A stretch of 64,000 nucleotides of DNA from Mobula hypostoma (Eukaryota): contig NC_086108.1 of the NCBI RefSeq assembly GCF_963921235.1, positions 46,874,001-46,938,000 of the forward strand, given 5' to 3'. The notes beneath the pieces were generated by a model. It worked only from the letters and a program-made list of their open reading frames with translations, did no database searches and was not told where the DNA came from. Position 1 is the first letter of the stretch. Each line of letters opens with the position of its first letter. The translations under genes and the position numbers were made by a program. Below, piece after piece: positions 61 through 60,601 of the stretch.

Positions 61-96
61 AGTCGACGTTTCGGGCCGAGACCCTTCATCAGGACA
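61..96 (-). ncRNA. Minimal hammerhead ribozyme motif (PLE-associated)
   Basis: Minus strand reads gtc-CTGATGA-a-gggtctcggccc-GAAAC-GTC-gac. Confidence 0.6.
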
Positions 97-5008: not shown

Positions 5009-8000
5009 TTTATTATACTATATCAGTAAAGAAAAAATACTCACTACATTTGAAATAGTTATCAGATTAGAATATTGTAGTCACAATGCACAAAACCCAT
5101 TCTCCACCAGAATTGTGCCATCCTCCAGCAGGCAGCATTATGTCAAAATTCTCTTCAACAAAAAGGTGATAGTTTGCAGATGCAAACCATCAAGGTAACT
5201 GAAATTAAATTTGGTGGTTCATGTCTATGAGTTTTATTTACATTTTAATCAAATACTTCAAAAGGGGCTTTACTCTGACATTTCCAATTCACTTAATGGA
5301 CACTCCAAAAATACTCTGCACCCATTTTAAATAGACATCTGGATAAACACAGTGATGGAATATGATAGATTTCTAATCTGCACTTTTGAATCTCTGGGAG
5401 CACATACTGCTTTTCTAAATATTGTCCCCATCGAGATTACTGCACTTTAAAACAGTTTTCACTAAAGTTGTATGATGATACGTTAATTGCAAGATTTTGA
5501 AACAAGTATTTTGAAAAAGATTTTGAAAGTGCTTTTGAAACGGATTAATTTTGGGGGGCAAGAATTGGATCCTGGATTTAAACAAATATCAGTTTGAAAA
5601 ATTTTGCTTGCTGCTATGTCCAAATCTGGCCTTGCTACAAATAGTTTCCTTGGCCAGGGATATCAAATTAATATGTCCTCATATTAAATTCTCAGTAAGT
5701 GTTTAAAACATGGTGCACAATCATAATTTTGGACACTACATTGGCTTCAACCTGAATATCAAATTCCATGTTTTCAGAATGAATACATCACTTGAAGCAG
5801 TATTAGTTCCAGGTACCAGTCCCGAAGCCATTCAGTATCCCAATGACAATTAAAAATCTGAGCACTCTGAAAGAATAAGTTATAAATCTGGCGGCACTAA
5901 ACAAAGATCACCTGACCTAGGGGCGGTATGAGGGATTATAGTACAGGCCTGTAAAAACAAATTTAAGATCAAGGTCAAATTCAAGATCAATTCAAGGATA
6001 CACAGGAAGAAAAACATTTTGGCACAGGATTATTTTCCAGTGCAGAATGCTTGTGCAAATCCACCAGTAAACAAAGTGAACTAGGGAGTACTTTGGAATT
6101 AAACAAAATTAATCAGCATTGCCTGTACCTTAATCTGCAATGGGAAGTCTATTCCATACTCAGCCAACAGAATAAGCAAAAAAAGTTTAGATATAAATTA
6201 GACTCCTAGCCAACCTTACAAATAAAAGGATTTTATTTAAATAGTTGCTTGCATTCCTACCCCCACCCCTGTGGAAATCTTTAGACTGACAGGTACCTTC
6301 AGTAATTTTGAATCTTAGTCAAGGATTTTTCCATAATACTGGTAAGGACAGCTTGGTCTGGCATCTAATTGAACAAGGTAATACAAAATCCTGCAGTGCA
6401 ACTACATCCCATTTAGTTCCACATCTTGGAAAAAATATATAACATTTTACTAACATAAGGCAGTGTTCAAAGGTTATTTCCCAAGATAGGATGAGGGAAT
6501 TCCATTTACATTAGCAATCACCTGGATAAGTTAGTAAAATGTTAAGAGGAAAGACCTCAAAATTCAAACCTTTTTCTGGGCTATATTGTCTTGTGCTAAG
6601 TAATGGTAATGTTGGCTTATGAAACACTCTTTACAGAAGAGTGAAAAGATTAGGGAGTTCAATTTATTATGCTTCCAATCCAATAATTCAATTAACAGAA
6701 CAAAGTACAGAAGTACAATAAAATGCATACAAAAATGTTTCTTATAATAAACAGCCACCATTATCTCTTAGCTCTCAACTCAAATGAAGTACTTTCTTGA
6801 TCCAACTTAATGGCAGGGTTTTCGGTTCAATTTCTGGATTCATAACCAAAACTTAATGCACAATGTACTAAGATCTTAACTTCATCCAACCGCACAGTGA
6901 TTTAAACAATACTGCAACTTGCTACACTAGATTCAGGATACTTTTGTTCTATCAACTGAACAAACAGACAGGATTTTGGAACTTTAAATACACAGATTTA
7001 AGACAGAATACATTTTTTCAAAATTAATTTTGCTGTTGACAATAGTTTTCCTTCATATTAATAAGTTCAATAATTACCATCCCAGGGTGAAAACCCACGA
7101 GTGCAGAAACAGAGCATACAGCCAATTGCTGCTAGGGTCATCATGAGAAGAATACTCAAAGTTTATTTACGATCAATCTCATTTTAAAATATTTTGCTTA
7201 GTCAACAGTGAAATTATTAACCCACACCTTCAGTACATCCTGTTTCCCATCCATTTGTATTTGAAATCTATCAAAGTGAATCTAGCACAGTAAGCAAATG
7301 TGTATAACCGAGATGAGAAAGGTCCCACTTTCATTCCCAGTTTCCTGGACTGGAATGTCATTGAGAACAGTTTAATTGGATATGACACAAAGGGTAGGGT
7401 GGAGAAACATTTGTTCAGGAGGTCTGAGCAGAATAGTTTTAAACAAAAATAGAATTTGCTGGAAATACTCAGCAAAGTCACTGGCTCAAAATGTTAGCAG
7501 CTTCTCTCCATGTGAGCTGCTAATCAAAGTAGAAACATATCAATAGGAATGCTGGCCTCAAATCTGACTGTCATCTTTGTGGCACAAAATGAATTACAGT
7601 GCTAAACAACATTTAATCTTCAAGTTGCACTGTTGCATTGAACTGTAAAATGATACACACCTCTACACTTATTTGTGCATGTATATTTGCTCATAACATG
7701 TAAACCTTCAAGTTCAACTTTATCTTCGTTTTGTACGGCTGGTGGGGACAATATGAGGGGAAGGAGAAGTAATTTTAAAAACCTTTACGTCCCTCTTCAG
7801 TGTTTTCTTTTTGGCATTCCTCCCACCTCCAAACAGAGAAGTCGGATACTTAATACAGTGTATGTAGCACTAAATTGGTATTCGTCCTGTGATTAATGTT
7901 TTAGAAAAATATCCAACTTTATGACCAAAACCCAAGACAGAACAAGAAGCAGGCACTATCCGGTGAAAGAAAAACATTCATTTGGTTTATGAAAAGTGCT

Positions 8001-8061
8001 GCCACAATCTGAAGAAATGTTCCCAGTTTTCTGTAGATTCAAGGACATTAGCTTCTTTCCA
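5009..8061 (-). other. Probable SOAT1 3' UTR (end uncertain)
   Basis: About 3 kb of AT-rich sequence with no recognisable TE after the stop; minus-strand AATAAA (plus-strand tttatt) near 7162, 6663, 6232, 5233 and 5009. Confidence 0.5.
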
Positions 8062-8118
8062 TTACGAGTTTAAGCGGCAAGTCCAAGACCGGGGTTTCAA
8101 CAAATCCAAGAAGGATGG
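8062..8118 (-). CDS. SOAT1: SOAT1 terminal coding exon ([18 protein letters not shown])
   Basis: 57 nt after a poly-C pyrimidine tract and cag; TAA at 8064-8062; matches human PTFLDYVRPRSWTC. Confidence 0.94.
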   Translation of the reverse strand, partial: PSFLDLLKPRSWTCRLNS

Positions 8119-11100
8119 CTGGGGGGGGGGGAGAAAATATTTTCAAATGATCTCACGTTATTAACAAAATCTCAGCAAATGAGACACAAGTAAAAGTCAC
8201 CAAGACTGTGACGGTATTTCTAATTAAGTATAAGCATTCCATTGGCAAAATTTGATTGTGAGATTTATATTATAATTTCCCCTACAGACAAAAATCCAGT
8301 CAAATGAAAGGCAGCTTACTGGAATCCACCGCTCAACTCAAAATCATGATTATTCTCAGAATAATGCCTAACTTTCAGAATAAACTCAACGTTCATTTCC
8401 ACATATGGACTTACATTTGTAAGGGGACAGTGCTGCTGGGCATACCACTCCTGAGAATACAGACATACCAACATGCCCTGCCCCAGGAACAGCGAAGTCC
8501 ACATCACCACGTTCCAAACAGGTCCTTTCCGACGGTCATGCAAGACGAAATTGAAAGCCACTACAAAACAAATGTTTACAAGTCAATCATTTAGAGTTAA
8601 TTGAAACAATGAGTTACTGATTTTACCAAACAAGCTATTGGCTACCTGAATAGCAAATAAAACATCTGTTTAAAAAAGCCTAATGTGAATGCTGGCCAAT
8701 CCATGTGTATTTTTACTTCTTACTGAAAGATTGAAGAGCACATCACAAGAAAATGAATGAGCAGAGTGAAGTAATTTTTAAATTGAGGGGGTACAGGTTC
8801 AAAAATAATTCAATATCATTAGCAACAAAACATTTAAAATGACAGGCAACTTCAAAATCATCAGATTGGAGGAGCAAGACCTTATTCCATCTGGATAGTC
8901 TCCAACCTGACAACATGAATATAGATCTCTCTAACCTATAATATTCACTTTACCTTTATCCCTCCCCTTTCCCATTCTAGCGGCTCTCATCCCTTTCCTC
9001 CTTCCCACCCTCACGACTTGTCCATCACCTCCCTCTGCTTCCCCACTTCTTTCCCTTTATTCCATGGTCCACTATCCTCGCCTACCAGATTCCATCTTCA
9101 GCTGTTTACCTCTTCCACCCATCACATCCCAGGTTCTCACATCGTTCCCCTCCTCAACCACCTTCCTCCTCACCTAGTCTTATCCATCAACTTCCAGCTC
9201 GTACTCTGCCTTCCATTCCCCTTCCTTTCCAGTCCTGAAGGATCTTGGCCAAAAGTATTGACTGTTTCCCTCCATAAATGCTGCCTGGCCTGCTGAGTTC
9301 CTCCAGCACTATGTGCTACTCACAATCCTCTTTAACCTACTGTGAAGCTAGTACATAGATAAATAGGCAAGCGAAATGCACAGATAATACATTCAAAGGT
9401 CAGCTGGCACAGTCTGAGTAGATTCCTTTGTTCTAAATGTCCATGTTCTGCGAATTAAGAAAGCAAAGTTTCTTTTTATAGCTGAGTGAGTCAATGGAAT
9501 TAATGCACATTCCAGCATGGAACTCTGCTATGAAACTTTTGCTGGTCATTTGAGTAGAAGTATCTGACCTTAAAGTAGCTCTGGTAAAGGTGCAAAAATT
9601 ACTTATGGATAAACCAACAGATAATTTTTTTAAAAAACGCAAACACGAGGAAATCTGCAGATGCTGGAAATTCAAGCAACACACATAAAAGTTGCTGGTG
9701 AACGCAGCAGGCCAGGCAGCATCTCTAGGAAGAGGTACAGTCGACGTTTCGGGCCGAGACCCTTCGTCAGGACTAACTGAAGGAAGAGCCAGTAAGAGAT
9801 TTGAAAGTGGGAGGGGGAGGGGGAGATCCAAAATGACAGGAGAAGACAGGAGGGGAAGGGATAGAGCCAAGAGCTGGACAGGTGATTGGCAAAAGGGATA
9901 TGAGAGGATCATGGGACAGGAGGCCTAGGGAGAAAGAAAAGGGGGAGGGGGGAGAGAAACCCAGAGGATGGGCAAGGGGTATAGTGACAGGGACAGAGGG
10001 AGAAAAAGGAGAGAGAGAGAAAAAAATCACTCCATCCTCCCACCACCCCACTAGGAATAGGGTTCCCCTTGTCCTCACCCACCACCCTAACCAGCCTCCG
10101 GGTCCAACATGTTATTCTCCGTAACTTCTGCCACCTCCAACAGGATCCCACCACTAAACACATCTTTCCCTCACCTCCCTCTCTGCTTTCCGCAGGGATC
10201 GCTCCCCACACGACTCCCTTGTCCATTCGCCCCCCCCACCCCCCTTCCCTCCCCACTGATCTCCCTCCTGGCAATTATCCTTGTAAGCGGAACAAGTGCT
10301 ACACATGCCCTCATACTTCCTCCCTTAACACCATTCAGGGCCCCAGACGTCCTTCCAGGTGAGGCGACACTTCACCTGTGAGTCGGCTGGGGTGATATAC
10401 TGCGTCCGGTGCTCCCGATGTGGCCTTTTATATATTGGCGAGACCCGGTGCAGACTGGGAGATCGTTTCGCTGAACACCTACGCTCTGTCCGCCAGAGAA
10501 AGCAGGATCTCCCAGTGGCCACACATTTTAATTCCACATCCCATTCCCACTCTGACATGCCTATCCACAGCCTCCTCTACTGTAAAGATGAAGCCACACT
10601 CAGGCTGGAGGAACAACACTTTATATTCCGTCTGGGTAGCCTCCAACCTGATGGCATGAACATTGATTTCTCAAACTTCCACTAATGCCCCACCTCCCCC
10701 TCGTACCCCCTCTGTTATTTATTTATATACACACATTCTTTTTCTCTCTCTCTCTCTCTCTTTTTCTCCCCCTCCCCCTCTCAAATCTCTTACTAGCTCT
10801 TCTTTCAGTTAGTCCTGACGAAAGGTCTCGGCCCCAAACGTCAACTGTTTCTCTTCCTGGAGATGCTGCCTGGCCTGCTGCGTTCACCAGCAACTTTTAT
10901 GTGTGTTGCAGATAATTTTTTTGATGATAATTCCAAACCTTGGGAAGTGATTATGGTGGTGGGTGGTGGGGGAGGCACTGGGGAACAGAGGAAGGGGGAA
11001 CTTGTAAGAAATGCAAGTTCTCACAATGACGTGGTGCAATTGCCATACTTAATGACATAGGTGAACACTTACTGAAGCGAAAGCCAAAAATTAAAATGTA

Positions 11101-14100
11101 CTTACTTCCAAAGCACATGAACAAGCAGAAGAGCACCGGATAGAAGAAGCCAAAGCAAACAGCCAACACATACTCATGAACCACAGCAGACACGGTGAAG
11201 ACTGACAGCATAGCTGCAGCTCGAAACCGGTGGGTGAACAACTGTAAACAGACAAAAGATTGAACTCTGTTAAATCAGGCATTAAAAAAGGTGAGTATTA
11301 CAAATTTGGTCAAGTGACCTTCAAGCACCAAGATCAATAAAACCTGTGTAAAAATTCTTCACATCCATACTCTTGAAAGCTGCTCCCCATAGCTGACTAA
11401 GGTTATTGTTTGCACAATCATGGCTCCATCCAAGCCATTTCTAATCAACATTTGGATCAAGTGAAGGATGCCATTATGATAATTAACTACAAGAACAATC
11501 CAGGATCTTCTTTAGGAGGAAAAGTTACTCTTGTTGAGATGTAGAATTCTTTTTCTCGACCTGTGGTTCAGCATGTTTTAATCAGACCAAGATGAATCCC
11601 ACTGAGAAAGCCTTTAAGCTTGCATCAGTCAAAATGACCACAGTTAGTAACTTGGATTTCTTCATGATTCTGTCAAGCCATAATCTAGCTATGTAGTTAA
11701 AAAAAAAGGTATACTATTTCATTACAAGTACATTATTATGGGAATTATTTATTTTGCTCTCAGCAGGATGTACAAGCTGATAAAACCTTGCTGGCTCAAA
11801 CCAATGGACTGAGTAAACTGGCTCAAGAGCAATGCTTCCCCACCCTTCAGACAGCACAGCTTTGGCACCTGGAAGCAACATTCAGATGAAACTGTTATGG
11901 AATTTATTGCAGATTCAAGGTGAACTATTGAAAATTGGAGGAGATATTCTGGGATTGCAGTTTGTGGAATCCCACGTGTGTGCATTCAAGCTATTCAAGA
12001 AGAGACCAGAATTTAAAGAGTACTGTTATTTACAGACATGAGTTGCAACTGTCCATGAAGTTGACTGATTCCCCAGTACCGGTATGGCCAAAACTTGATG
12101 ACTCCCAAGGATCACAAGCCTCTGCAGTACACTTTGTCGACAAATCCAAGCAGGTATCTCAGTCAAACATTAAAACTATCTCCACATGATTACAAAGAGA
12201 CAAGAGTAAGAATTTAAAACACAAACATTCCAAGTTAAATGACAAATAATGCACCTCCATCGAATTACAAATATCTGATGAGATTACATCACCAAGTACA
12301 TGAACATTCACAGAAACATAGAAAACCTACAGCACAATACAGGCCCTTCAGCCCACAAAGCTGTGCCGAACATGTCCTTACCCTAGAACTACCTAGGCTT
12401 ACGCATAGCCCTCGATTTTTCTAACCTCCATGTACCTATCCAGACCCTATCATTTCTGCCTCCACCGCCGCCAGCAGCCCATTCCACGCACTCACGACTC
12501 TGTGTAAAAAACTTACCCCCAACATCTCCTCTGTACCTACTTCCAAGCATCTTAGAACTATGCCCTCGTGCTATTTCAGCCCTGGGAAAAAGCCTTTAAC
12601 TATCCACATGATCAATGCCTTTCATTATCTTGTACACCTCTATTAGGTCACCCCTCATCCTCCGTCACTCCAAGGAGAAAAGGCTGAGTTCACTCAACCT
12701 ATTCTCATAAGGCATGCTCCTCAATCCAGGCAACATCCTTGTAAATCTCCTCTGCACCCTTTCTATGGTTTCCACGTTGTTCCTGTAGTAAGGCAACCAG
12801 AATTGAGCACAGTACTCCAAGTGGGGTCTGACAGGGTCCTATATAGCTGCAACATTACCTCTCGGCTCTTAAACTCAATCCCATGGTGATGAGGGCCAAT
12901 GCGTTTTAACCACAGAGGCAACCTGCAGACCAGCTTTGAACATCTTATGGACTCGGACCCCAAGATCCCTCTGATCCTCCACATTACCAGTCTTACCATT
13001 AATGCTATATTCTGCCATCATATTTGACCTACCAAAATGAACCACTTCACATTTATCTGGGTTGAACTCCATCTGCCACTTCTCAGCCCAGTTTTGCATC
13101 CTATCAATGTCCCCCTGTAACATCTGACAGCCCTCCACACTATCCACAAAACCCCCAACCTTTGTGTCATCAGCAAATTTACTAACCCATCCCTGCACTT
13201 CCTCATCAAGGTCATTTATAAAAATCACAAAGAGTAGGGGTCCCAGAACAAATCCCTGAGGCACACCACTGGTCACCGACCTCCATGCAAAATATGACAC
13301 ATCTATAACCACTCTTTGCCTTCTATGAGCAAACCAGTTCTGGATCCACAAAGCAATGTCCTCTTGGATCCCATGCCTCCTTACTTTCACAATAAGCCCC
13401 GCATGGGGTACCTTATCAAATGCCTTGCTAAAATCCATCTGGTCTGATGGTCTGCATCCCAGAGTGCTTAAGGAAGTAGTCCAAGAAATAGTGGACGAAT
13501 TAGTGATAATTTTTCAAAACTCTTTAGATTCTGGATTAGTTCCTGAGGATTGGAGGGTGGCTAATGTAACCCCGCTTTTTAAAAAAGGAGGGAGAGAGAA
13601 ACCGGGGAATTATAGACCGGTTAGTCTGACATCGGTAGTGGGGAAAATGCTCAAGTCAGTTATCAAAGATGTGATAACAGCACATTTGGAAAGCGGTGAA
13701 ATGATCGGACAAAGTCAGCATGGATCTGTGAAAGGAAAATCATGTCTGACGAATCTCACAGAATTTTTTGAGGATGTAACTAGTAGAGTGGATAGGGAAG
13801 AACCAGTGGATGTGGTATATTTGGATTTTCAAAAGGCTTTTGACAAGGTCCCACACAGGACATAAGTGTGTATGGTATTGATGTGGATAGAGAACTGGTT
13901 GGCAGACAAGAAGCAAAGAGTGGTAATAAACGGGACCTTTTCAGAATGGCAGGCGGTGACTAGTGGGGTACCGCAAGGCTCAGTGCTGGGACCCCAGTTG
14001 TTTACAATATATATTAATGACTTGGATGAGGGAATTAAATGCAGCATCTCCAAGTATGCGGATGACACGAAGCTGGGCGGCAGTGTTAGCTGTGAGGAGG

Positions 14101-20100: not shown

Positions 20101-23100
20101 CTATACAACATATCTGTCAGACCACATGGATATTAGTCAGTCATAGAAGACTACAGCACAGAAACAGGCCTTTTGGCCCATCTAGTATGTCCCAACCATT
20201 AACCTACCTAGTCACATTGACCTGCACTTGGACCATAGCCCTCCACACCCTTCTCGACTGTGTACTTATCCAAACTTCCTCTACTTGCTGAAATTGAACC
20301 TGCATCCACCACTTACAGTGACAGCTCATTCCACACACTCACCACGAGTGAAGTCTCCCCCTCATGTTCCCATTAAACATTACACCTTTTACCCTTAACC
20401 CATACCCATGTTATAGTCTCACCCAACCCCAGTGGAAAAAGCCTGCTTGGATTTACCCTTTCTATATCCCTCAATTTTGTATATCCCTATCAAATCTCTC
20501 TTCAATCTTCTATGTTCCATGGAATAAAATCCTAACCTCTTCAACCTTTCCCTGTACCTCAGGTGCTCAAGTCCTGGCGACATCCTTGTAAATTATCTCT
20601 GCACTCTTCCAATCTTACTTACATCTTTCCTCTATGTAGGTGACCAAAACCGCAGACAATATTTCAAATTGGGCCTCAGCAACATCTCATACAACTTCAA
20701 TATAACATCCTAATTCTTGTACTCAGTACATTGATTTATGAAGACCAATGTGGCAAAAGCACTTTCTTCATGATGATAGCTACTTGCGACGCCACTTTCA
20801 AGGAATTGTGGATCTCTAGTCCCAGGTCCTTCAGTTCAACTGCACTCCTCAGTGCCCTGCTGATCACAGTGCAAGACCTATCCTGGTTGGCTGTCCCAAA
20901 GGGCAACACCTCACATTGTTCTGCATTAAATTCCACCTACCATTTTTCCAGCTGGTTCAGATCCTACTGCAAGCTTTGATAGCCTTCCTTGCTGTCTAAT
21001 ACAACCCCAACCTTGGTGTCATCAACAAATTTGCTGATTGTTTACTACGTCATCATTCAGATTGTAGATATCTATTCACAGGCTTCCAATCAAAAAGGTA
21101 ACCATTTACTATCACTCTGGCTTCTGCGAGGCCAATGTCTAACCCAATTTACCACCTCATCTTGAATGCCAAGTGAATTAACCTTCTTGACCAACCGTCC
21201 ATGTGACACCTTGTCAAAGGCCTTGCTGAAGTCCAAGCACAGTACTTTGCAGAAGACTTTGACACATGAAAGAAAATGATGTGAAGCGAGGATGCTTTCA
21301 AAGATAATGAAATGAAAAAATTCTTAAATATCAAAAATTACAGCAGCAAACAGTAAAAAAAAACTAAATCAAATCAGTATTTGGTGTGACCATCCTTTGC
21401 CTTTAAAACTGCATCAATTATCTTAGGTACACTGTCGTATAGTTTTATAAAGAAAATTGGCTGGTAGGTTGTTCCAAGAACCTTGGAGAACTTGCCACAG
21501 TTCTCTTGCAGAGTTTGGCTGTCTTGCTTGCTTCTGTCTCTCCAGGTAATCTCAGACAGCTTTGATGATATTGAGATCAGGACCCTGTGGAGGCCATTCC
21601 ATCTTTTGAAGAACTCCTTGTTCTTCTTTCACTGAAGATAGTTCTTTATGAACTTGGCCATGTGTTTGGGGTTACTGCCCTGATCAGAAGCAACTTGGAA
21701 CATTAGCCCTACCATGTTCAAACTTGAGTAGGCTTAACAACATCTTTCTCCAAAACCACTCCACCATCTGTTTAGGCATTCTGGTTCCCATCCCCCTGCA
21801 TCTCTAGTTTAACACCCCCTACCCCCCACCATTTAACACCAGCAAGCCTTCCTGCTAGCATATTAATCCCCTTCCAGTTCAGGGAATTGTCCCTTCAATT
21901 CAAGCCCTATCTTATTTGGGAGCCCAATGATCCAAAAATCTGAAGCTCTCCCTCCTACACCAGCTCCTGAGCCATGTGTTAAACTGTATGATCTTCTCAT
22001 TTCTGACCTCATTAGCATGTGGCACAGGTAGCAATCCTGAAAACACAACACTGGAGGTCCTGCCCTTTAACTTTGCATCCAACTCCCTGAAATGAATTTG
22101 CAGGACATCATCCTACCCAAGTCAATAATACCTCTATGGACCACGACCTCTGGCTGCTCCAGCTATAGCTGTAAACACAAGCAATCTAAATGTCAAAACT
22201 CTAATCTACATTGAAAACGGTGTATGAAGCTCCAGATTTCTACCAAAAGCATTGGTTCTTTAACCTCCAAATGCCAAAACACAAATCCTATTCTGAAACA
22301 GGATTAGGCAAAAAAGGTGGTTTCTATTTTCACATTAACTGACGTGTTCAATGTATGCTACTAGATCACAAGTCCTTCAGGCTCCTTCCACGTTCTAGAA
22401 CCACAAGAGTGCACTCACTAAATCTGACTTTCAGTTAAGAATTCAGAGGGGGAATTACAATGCAGCACAAATGGTCAATTATTTTAGAGCAGGTGAATCA
22501 ATTGCACCCCAGCTCCTCATACAAGCCAAGCAGGTCGAAATGTTCCTTACCCAGAGAAAGTCTCTGTAAGCATAATAGTACAGCCAGTCATGGACCACTA
22601 CGTTCCAGGTCCGGTAATAGTTGGCAAAGGATGTGGAATTCCACCAGTCCTGAATGGAAATGGAAAAGACAAAATAAGGCTCAAAATCCAAAAATGATGT
22701 CTACTATAAGCCTACAGACTCTCACAGCTACCTGGACTATTCCTCTTCCCACCCTGTCTCTTGCAAAAATGCCATCCCCTTCTCGCAATTCCTCTGTTTC
22801 TGCCGCATCTGCTCTCAGGATGAGGCTTTTCATTCCAGGACAAAGGAGATGTCCTCCTTTTTTTAAAGAAAGGGGCTTCCCTTCCTCCACCATCAACTCT
22901 GCTCTCAAATGCATCTCTCCCATTTCACACACATCTGCTCTCACCCCATCCTCCCGTCACCCCACTAGGAATAGGGTTCCCCTGGTCCTCGCCTACCACC
23001 CCACCAGCCTCCAGGTCCAACATATTATTCTCCGTAACTTCCGCCACCTCCAATGGGATACCACCACTAAGCACATCTTTCCCTCCCCCCCCTTCTGCTT

Positions 23101-26100
23101 TCCTCAGGGATCGCTCCCTATGGAACTCCCCTATCCATTCGCCCCCCCCCCATCCCTCCCCACCGATCTCCCTCCTGGCACTTATCCTTCTAAGCGGAAC
23201 AAGTGCTACACGTGCCTCCCTCACCACCATTCAGGGCCCCAGACAGTCCTTCCAGGTGAGGTGACACTTCAGCTGTGAGTCAGGTGGGGTGATATACTGC
23301 GTCTGGTGCTCCCGGTGTAGCCTTCTATATATTGGCGAGACCCGACGCAGGCTGGGAGACGGTTTCGTTGAACACCTACGCTCTGTCCGCCAGAGAAAGC
23401 AGGATCTCCCAGTGGCCATACATTTTAATTCCACGTCCCATTCCCATTCTGATATGTCTATCCACAGCCTCCTCTACTGTAAAGATGAAGCCACACTCAG
23501 GTTGGAGGAACAACACCTTATATTCCGTCTGGGTAGCCTCCAACCTGATGGCATGAACACTGACTTCTCTAACTTCCGTTAATGCCCCACCTCCCCTTCG
23601 TACCCCATCCCTTATTAATTATTTTTTTTTTTCCCTCTCTCTGTCCCTCTTGAGACTTCCGGTAGCGCTCATGGAGTGAAGTCGCGTTCTTGACTCGCTC
23701 CATTACCTCTGAGTTTTTTTTCTCTATGGTCAGCTATACTTTAATTAACCATTAAGGCATCAATTCTTATAATACTTTGAATTAAACTGAATTCTCCGAC
23801 AACTGGATGATACTTAGATCTGCTATGTCTAAGAACGGGAAAAACGGCAAGGATGGTAAACCTCCGGTTAAACCGAAAGCTACGGATCTCCCCCCGACTG
23901 AATCACCGGTGACTTTGAAAGCTATATCGGAGTTAATTCAGAGGGAAATTTCAACCTCTGTTAGGGAGATGATTCGTACGGAAATTGCAGGCCCTGTTAA
24001 AGACCTGATTCATACGGAAATCTCAACTAATCTCCAGAAAATTGCCGATTCAATTGATAAGATGCAAACATTTATTGCGGAACATCAGTCGGCTATATCT
24101 GATCTTCAAAAATTCGCGCAACAAAGTGAGCTTAAGATGGGGAAAATCGAAGAAACAATTAATGTAATGAAGAAGAAACTTGACTTTTTGACTTTTAAAA
24201 ATTCTGACTTGGAATCTAGAATGCGACGGCAGAATTTACGAATGATCGGGGTGAGGGAAGCTGTGGAATCTAACAACCCCATGAAGTATTTTTCTCAACT
24301 TTTAAAAGATGCATTCCCTACTGTATTTCCTGACCAACCACCGCTTCTGGATCGTGTTCACAGAATCCCATCATACTCGTCTAGGTCAGATAGACCTAGG
24401 CATGTTATCTTACGTTTTCATTACTTTCAAGACAAGGAGAGACTGTTTCGATTCGCTCGATCTAAAGGTTTCATTGATTTTTCGGATCTTAAGTTCCGAT
24501 TCGTGGAAGATTTCAGTAAACCAATCTGGGACCAACGGGTTCGTTACAGATCCGTGATGTCGGAATTCTATAAGATGGATTTAAGACCAGCGCTGCTGTA
24601 CCCTGCACGTCTAAGGATTCGCATGTCAGATGGAGCCCTTCGTTTTTTTTGATTCTCCATCGGATGCCCAGAGTTATCTGGATCAACTTTCATCTTCAAC
24701 ATCTTAATTGCTTTTTTTAAATTATCTCTCTGTCCCTCTTACTCATCCTCTGGGCTCCCCGCCCCCTTTCATTCTCCCACGATCCTCTCCCTTCTCCAGC
24801 CTCGTATCCCTTTTGCCAATCAATTTTCCAGCTCTTAGCTCCATCCCTCCCACTTCTGTCTTCTTCTATCATTTCCGATCTCCCCCTCCCACTTTCAAAT
24901 CTCTTGCTACCACTTCTTTAGTCAGTCCTGACGGAGGGTTTCAGCCCGTAACGTCGACTGTACCTCTTCCTATAGATGCTGCCTGGCCTGCTGCGTTCAC
25001 CAGCATTTTTTTTGTGTGTGTTGCTTGAACTTCCAGCATCTGCAGATTTCCTCATGTTTGCACTTTATTCAATACTTTGATTTGCCCAAGGCATAATTTA
25101 TGATTCTTTACATTTGGTTCAAAGTAGTACTTAAGTAAAGCCCACTCTCACTGTTTACTAGTTACTTCTGCCATTGCTTTGTTCCCCACAATATTACTGA
25201 TATCCAAAAATATTAAGGGGAATGAATGCAAATGGATGTGGGTGCATGAGCCAGAAGCCACCATTTCACTTTGAACTGCATACAACAGCATTTCCCCCAT
25301 CTCAACCAATTTGCAGGAAGCATACAAACTGCAGTCAGCAAATTTCAGCCAGTATTTTAGAAAACACTTGCCCTATACTTATGGAGCCTACTTTTTTTGA
25401 TGATGTGTAAGCTTTGTAGCAAAAAAAAAAGGCTAAAATGAAAGTACAGGAACTGAGAGATTTATACATGTGATTGCAAGCACTTCTGATGAAATGTATA
25501 TACTGTTATCAACCCAAAGACATCAGATAGGATTAAAGTAACCACAGAACATTATGTGCATCCAAGAATTTAAAACGACCAAAGGTTACCTTATAAAACA
25601 TCCTGTCAGCAAACTGCAGCATTTCAGCAAAGGCATTGAGCCAACAGTGGAGAAATGCAAAGAAAGCCAGGAACAGCACGAGCACACCTGAAAAACAAAG
25701 CCGTACACAACCTGTGATATTTGCCACAACTGGCGGGGTCTCAGTACATTTGCAAAATCCTTGACTTTAATCCCCAACCACAATTCACTCAACATTACAA
25801 GGGACATTTTAAATAATCTAAACCAGATACTGCTTTCACTTGCAATAAGTGAGTGAGATAAGCAGCTTCCTGCTTCAATTAAGAGGTTGAGTTAGCAGCA
25901 CAGTTGACACTGGTCATCTTGAAGATTGGACCAAATATGTGACTGCTTCAGCTTCTTGATCCCTTTTGTTTTGGATTAAGTATTATGGGCGCAGTATTAT
26001 TCACAATAAGCACCGATTACAATTGATATTTACAGGTGGTACTTTCAGGATGTGTGCAAGAACGATCCCTACCTGGTAAAATGGAGTTGAAAATGCAAAG

Positions 26101-58858: not shown

Positions 58859-59620
58859 ACACTTCCTCCCTTACCACCATTCAGGGCCCCAGACAGTCCT
58901 TCCAGGTGAGGCAACACATCACCTGTGAGTCGGCGGGGGTGATATACTGCGTCCGGTACCCCAGATGTGGCCTTCTATATATTGGCGAGACCCGACGCAA
59001 ACTGGGAGATCGTTTCGCTGAACACCTACGTTCTGTCTGCCAGAGAAAGCAGGATCTCCCACTGGCCACACATTTTAATTCCACGTCCTGTTTCTATTCT
59101 GATATGTCTATCCACGGCCTTCTCTACTGTAAAGATGAAGCCACACTCAGTTTGGAGGAACAACACCTTATATTCCATCTGGGTAACCTCCAACCTGATG
59201 GCAAGAACATTGACTTCTCAAACTTCCGCTAATGCCCCACCTCCCCCTCGTACCCCATCCGTTATTTATTTATATACACACATTCTTTTTCTCTCTCTCC
59301 TTTTTCTCCCTCTGTCCCTCTCACTACACCCCTTGCCCATCCTCTGGGTTTTTTCCACCTCTCCCCCTTCTCTTTCTCCCTAGGCCTCCTGTCCCATGAT
59401 CCTCTCATATCCCTTTTGCCAATCAACTGTTTCGCTCTAGGGTCCATCCCTCCCCCTCCTGTCTTCGCCTATAATTTTGGATCTCCCCCTCCCCCTCTCA
59501 AATCTTTTACTAGCTCTTCTTTCAGTTAGTCCTGACGAAGGGTCTCGGCCTGAAACGTCGACTGTACTTCTTCCTAGAGATGCTGCCTGGCCTGCTGCAT
59601 TCACCAGCAACGTTGATGTG
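58859..59620 (+). mobile_element. Penelope-like 3' fragment nested in the CR1 RT
   Basis: GIY-YIG domain plus tail; tgtac duplicated at 58854-58858 and 59621-59625; the CR1 resumes at LGPMLFVIY. Confidence 0.93.
59527..59564 (+). ncRNA. Minimal hammerhead ribozyme motif
   Basis: tagtc-CTGACGA-a-gggtctcggcct-GAAAC-GTC-gactg (helix II closing pair is G-U). Confidence 0.6.
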
Positions 59621-60601
59621 TGTACTGGGTCCAATGTTGTTTGTCATATATGTTAATGATCTGGGTGATAGGGTGGTAAATTGGATTAGTAAGTATGGAG
59701 ATGATACTAAGATAGGTGGCGTTGTGGATAATGAAGTAGGTTTTCAAAGCTTGCAGAGAGATTTGGGCCAGTTGGAAGAGTGGGCTGAAAGATGGCAGAT
59801 GGGAGTTTAATGCTGATAAATGCGAGGTGCTACATTTTGGTAGGGCTAATCAAAATAGGACATACATTGTAAATGGTAGGGCATTGAAGAATGCAGTAGA
59901 ACAGAGGGATCTAGGAATAATGGTGCATAGTTCCCTGAAGGTGGAATCTCATGTGGATAGGGTGGTGAAGAAAGCTTTTGGTATGCTGGCCTTTATAAAT
60001 CAGAGCATTGAGTATAGGAGTTGGGATGTAATGTTAAAATTGCACAAGGCATTGGTAAGGCCAAACTTGGAGTATTGTGTACAGTTCTGGTCACCAAATT
60101 ACAGGAAAGATGTCAACAAAATAGAGAGAGTACAGAGAAGATTTACAGGAATGTTACCTGGATTTCATCACCTAAGTCACAGAGAAAGGTTGAGCAAGTT
60201 GGGTCTTTATTCTCTGGAACGTAGAAGGTTGAGGGGGGACTTGATAGAGGTATTTAAAATTATGAGGGGGATAGATAGAGTTAACGTGGATAGGCTTTTT
60301 CCATTGAGAGTGGGGGAGATTCAAACAAGAGGACGTGAGTTGAGAGTTAAAGGGCAAAAGTTTAGGGGTAACATGAGAGTGGTTGCTGTGTGGAACGAGC
60401 TTCCTGCAGAAGTGGTAGAGGCAGGTTCGATATTGTCATTTAAAGTAAAATTGGATAGCTATATGGACAGGAAAGGAATGGAGGGTTATGGGTTGAGTGC
60501 AGGTCGGTGGGACTAGGTGAGAGTAAGCGTTCGGCATGGACTAGAAGGGCCGAGATGGCCTGTTTCTGTGCTGTAATTGTTATATGGTTATAATTATCAC
60601 C

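What the first reader, a model, noticed from the sequence alone, without database searches (positions are those of the whole stretch)
9738..9776. Penelope tails carry a minimal type-I hammerhead ribozyme; an intact copy lies sense in SOAT1 pre-mRNA
Seen: UUAGUC CUGACGA A GGGUCUCGGCCC GAAAC GUC^GACUG, giving helix I (UAGUC/GACUG), the conserved CUGANGA and GAAA boxes, helix II, and a loop-less palindromic ACGU helix III. Predicted cleavage is between 9743 and 9742. There is one extra A after CUGACGA compared with the canonical core. Related copies lie at 61-96 (-) and 59527-59564 (+), with mutated ones at ~9230, 10811-10847 (GAAA to CAAA), ~24925, ~34950 and ~38490. Known: minimal hammerheads are described in Penelope-like elements and are thought to cleave as dimers. 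Inference: this is a high-copy ribozyme-bearing repeat family whose tail often spreads alone, like a retrozyme. This copy could cut the host intron, or be masked by pairing with its own inverted, core-mutated partner 1 kb away.
Basis: partly seen in the sequence, partly recalled or inferred. Interest (0 to 1): 0.75.

Follow-up and report, generated by a model that had tools for sequence, protein, structure and literature searches.

The report
Penelope hammerhead masked inside SOAT1 intron
This is an intact copy of the tiny self-cutting RNA motif that Penelope-type jumping genes are already known to carry, one of tens of thousands in this genome; it sits in a SOAT1 intron but is predicted to be locked in a long hairpin by the other half of the same insertion, so it likely does not cut the host RNA.

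Summary
9738-9776 (-) is an intact minimal type-I hammerhead motif, the only strict match in the window (0 in 100 shuffles). It lies sense in the 2,545-nt SOAT1 intron 11105-8561. It matches the published Penelope min-HHR, including the 'extra' A. The 'partner 1 kb away' is not a separate element: both arms form one 1,277-nt insertion between 14-bp target duplications, the usual inverted, 5'-truncated Penelope layout. The parent is an autonomous RT + GIY-YIG element with a hammerhead at each end (L132). The genome holds over 45,000 exact motif copies. The partner arm is transcribed first, and 38 of 39 motif bases are predicted to pair with it. Published min-HHRs do not cut alone or without the element's protein, so cutting of SOAT1 is unlikely (about 7%). 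Core conservation is modest and no compensatory pair changes were seen. The short copies are truncation products, not retrozymes. The scan noted this family before in other shark/ray-type genomes (76 notes, at least 22 genomes). New member of a known kind; low interest.

The parts
9738..9776 (-). Minimal type-I hammerhead motif: helix I 9775-9771 with 9742-9738; CUGACGA 9770-9764; inserted A 9763; helix II 9762-9759 with 9754-9751; GAAA 9750-9747; ACGU palindrome 9747-9744; C17 at 9743; predicted cut 9743/9742
9632..10025 (-). Left arm of the insertion: inverted, 5'-truncated copy of the element's last ~390 nt (3' untranslated region/pLTR with the hammerhead, plus a ~44-nt tail extension absent from the other arm)
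   Evidence: blastn to full-length L132, 89.8% over 391 nt, inverted pair I11
10027..10908 (+). Right arm: 5'-truncated 3' end of the Penelope-like element (Cys linker, GIY-YIG coding region ending at 10685, pLTR with a ~160-nt deletion)
   Evidence: Pfam GIY-YIG E 4.7e-4, below the curated cut-off
10811..10847 (+). Core-mutated hammerhead copy (G10.1>A, G12>C, G1.1>A). It is antisense in SOAT1 pre-mRNA and is transcribed before the intact copy. It is part of a 144-bp, 93% inverted repeat (9676-9819 with 10766-10909)
9618..9631 (+). Left target-site duplication, 14 bp, AT-rich
10909..10922 (+). Right target-site duplication, identical 14 bp
8561..11105 (-). SOAT1 host intron, GT..AG, 2,545 nt; the predicted cut is 1,363 nt after the donor and 1,182 nt before the acceptor
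11106..11241 (-). SOAT1 exon upstream of the intron (carries the VVHEY motif)
8414..8560 (-). SOAT1 exon downstream of the intron; a last coding exon follows at 8119 to ~8062

Best explanation
The motif is the minimal hammerhead of a high-copy Penelope-like retrotransposon, carried into a SOAT1 intron as one arm of an inverted, truncated insertion, where it is predicted to be sealed in a 144-bp hairpin and likely never cuts. Shown: the motif and the two arms; one 14-bp target duplication around both arms; an autonomous parent with pLTR(HHR)-ORF(RT, Cys linker, GIY-YIG)-pLTR(HHR); and tens of thousands of copies. Inferred, for how it arose: the element's endonuclease nicked an AT-rich site, and reverse transcription started at the two tail positions, giving an inverted 5'-truncated arm plus a direct arm. 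Inferred, for where the ribozyme works: in transcripts of the parent element, as a strand-swapped dimer through the ACGU palindrome and/or when folded by the element's own protein. That would put weak purifying selection on the core in source elements, while dispersed copies decay almost neutrally. Inferred, for SOAT1: the antisense arm is made about 950 nt earlier and captures the motif as it emerges, so the intron is spliced as an unbroken RNA.
For: Target duplication and single-insertion anatomy. An inverted upstream partner in 39 of 96 sampled copies, spanning the core in 18 of 96. The same layout is described in PMC8557442 (passages) and PMC4209133. Full-length L132 has two sense motifs 3.5 kb apart around a 1,043-codon open frame. 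In the fold of 9600-10940 (-), 38 of 39 motif bases pair with the partner at probability >=0.98. Alone, the motif prefers an inactive rod (-14.1 kcal/mol) to the hammerhead shape (-9.5). The active dimer (-17.9) lies above two inactive monomers (2 x -13.5). A single min-HHR showed no cleavage and dimers were weak (PMC4209133). The anole Poseidon HHR shows no cleavage without the element's protein, and no RNA-seq reads ended at its cut site (PMC11167929). Slow intronic ribozymes do not affect splicing (PMC10919898 citing Fong 2009, passage). An intact core is unremarkable: 6 of 23 copies of this subfamily and 32 of 40 of the younger one are intact. Inactivating G8>A copies are common: 1,565, against 1,810 for a context-matched loop change.
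Against: No cleavage or splicing assay was run. The energies are nearest-neighbour models that ignore tertiary contacts, proteins and co-transcriptional kinetics. A PLE HHR does cleave when the element's protein is present, so a trans-activated route exists in principle. The sense arm has fewer private changes than the antisense arm (4 of 390 against 26 of 809, p=0.028), which could hint at constraint, although the measure depends on the subfamily mix of the sample. No two-sided covariation was seen at 11 pairs in 80 distinct copies, so the fold is not independently shown for this family. The Pfam RT and GIY-YIG scores of the parent are below the curated cut-offs.
Confidence: 0.84

Rival explanations
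1. The intronic copy is a conditional cut site. In cells that make the Penelope protein, the protein would bind the retained tail, fold the motif (alone or with a second copy in trans) and cut SOAT1 pre-mRNA fast enough to lower splicing.
For: The core, G10.1-C11.1 and helix I are intact. About 110 nt of downstream tail is retained. PLE protein switches on the anole HHR (PMC11167929). Young long-ORF elements exist in the genome. Fast intronic ribozymes can reduce splicing (PMC10919898). The sense arm is less changed than the antisense arm.
Against: A 144-bp duplex (computed -278 kcal/mol) covers the motif and most of the tail, and the partner is made first. The acceptor is only 1.2 kb away. 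No reads were found at the cut site for the anole element. There is no excess of core-breaking changes among genomic copies, which host selection against cutting would predict.
Confidence: 0.07
2. The insertion matters as a long double-stranded hairpin, not as a ribozyme. It would be edited by ADAR or would slightly change splicing of this intron, whose length it doubled.
For: A 144-bp, 93% inverted repeat with a 946-nt loop lies inside a 2.5-kb intron. Long intronic inverted repeats are standard ADAR substrates (general knowledge, not tested).
Against: The hairpin does not enclose an exon and ends about 200 nt from the donor and about 1,070 nt from the acceptor. No A-to-G bias is seen between the genomic arms. 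Editing alone would be ordinary and need not change SOAT1 output.
Confidence: 0.06
3. The short copies are a non-autonomous retrozyme or SINE family that replicates through self-cleaved, circular RNA.
For: 31 of 96 tail-anchored copies begin within or after the motif, and starts cluster just before the core (16 of 49 starts in 10 of 83 positions, p=1.3e-4). Retrozymes are proposed to derive from pLTRs (bioRxiv 10.64898/2026.07.22.740005).
Against: There is no tandem array of motif units in the window. A same-strand partner occurs in only 4 of 96 copies. Only 2 of 96 copies start at the cut site. This copy is attached to GIY-YIG coding sequence.
Confidence: 0.03

Closest known systems
Minimal hammerheads (min-HHR) in pLTRs of metazoan Penelope-like elements (Cervera and De la Pena 2014, PMC4209133)
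   Same: CUGANGA plus one nucleotide, G10.1 pair, GAAAC-GUC with a loop-less palindromic helix III, and a 4-5-bp helix I. Located in the pLTR, thousands of dispersed single copies, and opposite-strand pairs a few hundred bases apart. G10.1-U11.1 also appears in their Fig. S3 rows for cichlids, Xenopus, coelacanth and Clonorchis.
   Different: No cartilaginous fish appears in Table S1 or the Fig. S3 rows I could read. Helix II here is short (4 bp, against 7-8 bp in Schistosoma). The copy number (>45,000 exact) is above their highest figure of about 9,000.
PAc Poseidon element of Anolis carolinensis (Frangieh et al. 2024, PMC11167929)
   Same: RT plus C-terminal GIY-YIG; HHR at the pLTR-ORF junction; AT-rich target containing ATT; a tail extension at only one end.
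   Different: This element has a CX4CxxC linker before the endonuclease, which PMC8557442 gives as a Neptune/Nematis trait. The open frame begins downstream of the cut site rather than inside stem II. Protein-assisted cleavage is untested here.
EN+ PLE insertion units with an inverted 5'-truncated copy (Craig et al. 2021, PMC8557442, Fig. 2 legend)
   Same: Inverted 5'-truncated copy adjacent to the 5' end, and a 30-40-bp tail at one end only.
   Different: No difference found; here a clean 14-bp target duplication is visible.
Non-LTR retrozymes (Li et al. 2026, bioRxiv 10.64898/2026.07.22.740005)
   Same: Type-I HHR of pLTR origin; reported in one chondrichthyan among 31 vertebrates.
   Different: Retrozymes are tandem arrays with an HHR in consecutive units. 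This copy is a truncated piece of a coding element in an inverted pair.
CPEB3 intronic ribozyme (PMC10919898)
   Same: A self-cleaving motif in a host intron that could compete with splicing.
   Different: CPEB3 is an HDV-like ribozyme, active as a monomer with a half-life of 2-3 min and 9.9 kb from the next exon. This motif is a repeat copy, predicted to be masked, and 1.2 kb from the acceptor.

Membership tests
Minimal type-I HHR of metazoan PLEs | C3-U4-G5-A6-N7-G8-A9 and G12-A13-A14-A15.1 boxes, with U16.1-H17 at the cut | tested here: met
Minimal type-I HHR of metazoan PLEs | One nucleotide between 9 and 10.1; G10.1-C11.1 (or G-U) pair closing helix II | tested here: met
   A at 9763 and G9762-C9751; trait listed in PMC4209133
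Minimal type-I HHR of metazoan PLEs | Palindromic 15.2-16.2, no loop 3; helix I of 4-5 bp | tested here: met
   ACGU; 5-bp helix I
Minimal type-I HHR of metazoan PLEs | Located in the pLTRs of a PLE | tested here: met
   L132 has motifs on both sides of the ORF; the window arms map to its 3' end
Minimal type-I HHR of metazoan PLEs | Compensatory base changes across family copies | tested here: inconclusive
   0 two-sided changes at 11 pairs in 80 distinct copies; two recurrent one-sided changes keep pairing. The copies are too closely related to be informative.
Minimal type-I HHR of metazoan PLEs | Site-specific self-cleavage as a dimer or with protein | not testable with these tools
   Needs an in vitro assay
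EN+ Penelope-like element | Single ORF with RT followed by GIY-YIG endonuclease, flanked by pLTRs | tested here: met
   L132: 1,043-codon frame, RVT_1 E 7.6e-5 and GIY-YIG E 0.0043 (both below curated cut-offs), YIDD motif visible
Neptune clade | CX2-5CxxC linker between RT and EN | tested here: met
   CKRNKCYTC in L132 and in the window copy; the trait is shared with Nematis (PMC8557442)
Neptune clade | RT groups with Neptune references in a tree | not tested
   No reference PLE proteins were fetched
Non-LTR retrozyme | Tandem array with an intact HHR in at least two consecutive units | tested here: not met
   No such array in the window; same-strand partner in 4 of 96 sampled copies; arrays elsewhere in the genome were not searched for
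Non-LTR retrozyme | No protein-coding sequence | tested here: not met
   The insertion carries GIY-YIG coding sequence
Non-LTR retrozyme | Circular RNA of unit length | not testable with these tools
   Only contigs were available
Functional intronic ribozyme (CPEB3 type) | Folds and cuts as a monomer within the time window of splicing | tested here: inconclusive
   Folding models put the motif in an inactive rod or a 144-bp duplex; no assay
Functional intronic ribozyme (CPEB3 type) | Conserved at the orthologous site in related species | tested here: inconclusive
   Contigs of related organisms stop before the junctions

The most novel reading that the evidence does not exclude
Sense intronic copies of this family are protein-switched cut sites. 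Wherever the Penelope protein is made, it would turn thousands of host introns into cleavage substrates. The inverted arm that about 40% of copies carry, transcribed first, acts as a built-in antisense lock that lets intact copies such as this one persist in genes while unlocked ones are purged.
Probability: 0.07. Interest if true: 0.7.

Novelty: new member of a known kind. Interest (0 to 1): 0.2.

Why it matters
As it stands it matters little: it extends a known motif to a very high-copy element of what is likely a shark or ray (a recalled and inferred label, not tested). The family is useful as test material. With more than 45,000 exact copies, a young full-length parent and two age classes (G-C and G-U at 10.1-11.1), it could address the open question of what PLE hammerheads do and whether hosts select against sense, unmasked copies in introns. 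If the element's protein could trigger cutting in host pre-mRNAs, that would be a new way for a transposon to affect host gene output.

Tried and rejected
Rfam at gathering score over the whole window and at E<=10 over 9600-9900 gave no hammerhead hit; this is uninformative. Sequencing runs: no RNA holder was listed on record, and all runs were contigs. Laying them gave no read ends, was swamped by other family copies, and showed no contig across either insertion junction, so there is no verdict on expression, cleavage or an empty site in relatives. An early 40% deficit of G8>A against C7>U (1,565 vs 2,601) looked like strong selection, but it shrank to 14% against a loop C>T in the same TCG context (1,810). 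Most of it is therefore read as sequence-context bias; the wider context is still unmatched. The first CpG comparison (6 of 161 vs 57 of 598) was set aside because G12 is a CpG only in the older subfamily. G10.1-U11.1 was considered as a novelty and rejected, because it is in published min-HHR alignments. An ADAR scar between the two genomic arms was looked for and not seen. The anchor missed this subfamily and sampled sister families instead; those 30 loci entered the family-wide pools but not the 96-copy sample. A sense-versus-antisense intron count was not possible, because no annotation is available and the forward/reverse counts refer to contig strands. One PDB search in the wrong frame gave no hit. 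Literature searches found no paper on min-HHRs of chondrichthyan PLE pLTRs by these terms. The library lacks most subscription journals, supplement file 1 of PMC4209133 could not be read, and the supplements of the 2026 bioRxiv preprint (which includes one chondrichthyan) were not seen and may already cover this family.

Full report
Observation. The minus strand at 9775-9738 carries the motif exactly as described. A strict type-I descriptor (CUGANGA, optional extra base, G-C-closed helix II, GAAA, UH, helix I of at least 4 bp) finds this one site on the two strands of the window and none in 100 dinucleotide shuffles. The predicted cut is 9743/9742. blastn finds nine family pieces in the window. 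The other eight fail the descriptor: 61-96 because helix I breaks after 3 bp, 59527-59564 because 10.1-11.1 is G-U, and the rest by core changes or truncation. Rfam has no hit, and the folding z-score is -0.38.

Host gene. An MBOAT match lies at window 22554-22652 on the minus strand. The exons 11241-11106 and 8560-8414 match consecutive stretches of human SOAT1 (residues 440-482 and 485-532 of chain 6vum_A) and match SOAT2 less well. They bound a GT..AG intron of 2,545 nt. The motif is therefore sense in SOAT1 pre-mRNA, 1,363 nt after the donor and 1,182 nt before the acceptor.

Anatomy of the insertion. An identical 14-bp AT-rich word at 9618-9631 and 10909-10922 encloses both the intact copy and its 'partner'. 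Against a full-length element, 9636-10025 is the inverted last ~390 nt, and 10027-10909 is the direct 3' end including the GIY-YIG region. Only the left arm has the last ~44 nt of tail. This is the described PLE unit with an inverted 5'-truncated copy and a one-sided tail (PMC8557442, passages and Fig. 2 legend). Opposite-strand min-HHR pairs are also described in PMC4209133. I sampled 97 of the first 100 places listed for a tail anchor outside the motif and dropped one near-duplicate locus. Of the remaining 96 copies, 39 have an inverted partner within 1.45 kb upstream, in 18 the partner spans the core, and 4 have a same-strand partner.

Parent element. A search with the window's endonuclease piece listed frames of up to 1,043 codons. 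L132 is pLTR-ORF-pLTR with sense motifs 3.5 kb apart. Its protein has an RT (RVT_1 E 7.6e-5, YIDD), a CX4CxxC linker and GIY-YIG (E 0.0043); both Pfam scores are below the curated cut-offs. The linker points to Neptune or Nematis (PMC8557442); no tree was built. Exact genome counts are 6,478 motifs with C11.1, 38,661 with U11.1, 65,069 for this subfamily's tail anchor and 26,649 for a sister anchor. Reversed-pattern controls gave 0. U11.1 copies are younger (1.7% against 4.5% differences), and all nine loci picked around long ORFs carry U11.1. The SOAT1 copy belongs to the older class, in which 6 of 23 motif-spanning copies are still intact.

Is the core under selection? At non-CpG core positions there were 6 changes against 15.1 expected from base-matched non-core positions (p=0.007; the copies are not fully independent). 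Genome-wide in the U11.1 class, relative to 36,060 unchanged motifs, G8>A occurs 1,565 times, C7>U 2,601, loop G>A 2,363 and loop C>T 1,810. Against the control with the same trinucleotide context the deficit is 14% (p=3e-5). This fits weak purifying selection on source elements with near-neutral decay afterwards, and it shows no excess of core-breaking changes. No two-sided compensatory change was found at 11 pairs in 80 distinct copies (of 125). The two recurrent changes (U-G/C-G at the end of helix I, G-C/G-U at 10.1-11.1) keep pairing.

Would this copy cut? In the fold of 9600-10940 (-), 38 of 39 motif bases pair with the partner arm at probability 0.98 or more; only G12 is unpaired. The partner is transcribed first. 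Alone, the motif prefers a rod in which the core pairs with the cut-site strand (-14.1 against -9.5 kcal/mol). The double-hammerhead dimer scores -17.9 against -27.0 for two inactive monomers. These models omit tertiary contacts and proteins. Published data agree. A single min-HHR gave no cleavage and multimers were weak (PMC4209133; I read parts 1-2 of 4 of the main text and parts 1-2 of 3 of supplement 2). The anole PLE HHR cleaves only with the element's protein, is dispensable for insertion in vitro, and left no read ends at the cut site (PMC11167929, parts 1-2 of 4). Slow intronic ribozymes do not affect splicing (PMC10919898, passages citing Fong 2009). Against this reading: protein-assisted cleavage exists, and the sense arm is less changed than the antisense arm (4 of 390 against 26 of 809, p=0.028). 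The sequencing data gave no verdict.

Retrozyme? By the definition in the 2026 preprint (part 1 of 5 and passages), a retrozyme is a tandem array with motifs in consecutive units. None is present in the window, and this copy carries coding sequence. Short copies are common (31 of 96 start within or after the motif). Their starts cluster just upstream of the core (16 of 49), while 2 start at the cut site. This argues that uncut RNA is the template.

Verdict. The motif is real and is a new member of the known PLE min-HHR kind. That the host is a shark or ray is recalled from the repeat landscape and from those notes, not tested. The SOAT1 copy is most likely an inert passenger locked in its own insertion's hairpin (0.84). 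The bold alternative, protein-switched cutting of host introns with the inverted arm as a lock, is not excluded but is unlikely (0.07). Interest 0.2.

Noticed in passing
genome-wide; L131-L139; window 59527-59564: The youngest and largest wave of the element has G10.1-U11.1 (38,661 exact copies against 6,478 with G-C), including all nine loci picked around long ORFs. A wobble at this pair did not hinder amplification; G-U is already seen in published min-HHRs.
   Followed up: yes
L041-L123 (tail-anchored sample): 5' truncation points cluster in the 10 bases just upstream of the core (16 of 49 starts), five at the same base. Only 2 lie at the cut site.
   Followed up: partly
window 9636-10025 versus 10030-10909: The two arms of one insertion differ in private changes (1.0% against 3.2%). 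Possible causes are two templates, gene conversion, sample bias or chance.
   Followed up: partly
L114 (G000:C1:4371133-4371236): A perfect fold-back insertion whose centre of symmetry is the helix III ACGT palindrome, suggesting self-priming or a template switch at that word.
   Followed up: no
window 22695-25062: A longer Penelope copy (22695-23623 and 24735-25062) is split by an L1 ORF1-like frame (23786-24652). It begins only about 45 nt from the acceptor of the SOAT1 exon at 22649.
   Followed up: no
window 58859-59623: A young U11.1-class Penelope 3' end is inserted into a CR1-like LINE reading frame.
   Followed up: no
window 7900-8118: A 4,060-nt contig of run X1 (guessed to be RNA) matches without differences, ends at the start of the last SOAT1 exon and runs about 3.8 kb further. 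This is a weak hint of a long 3' untranslated region that would stop short of the 61-96 copy.
   Followed up: no
L130, L140 (10 kb on either side of the window): Both neighbouring stretches hold further copies of the family with core or helix changes, L130 in inverted arrangements.
   Followed up: no
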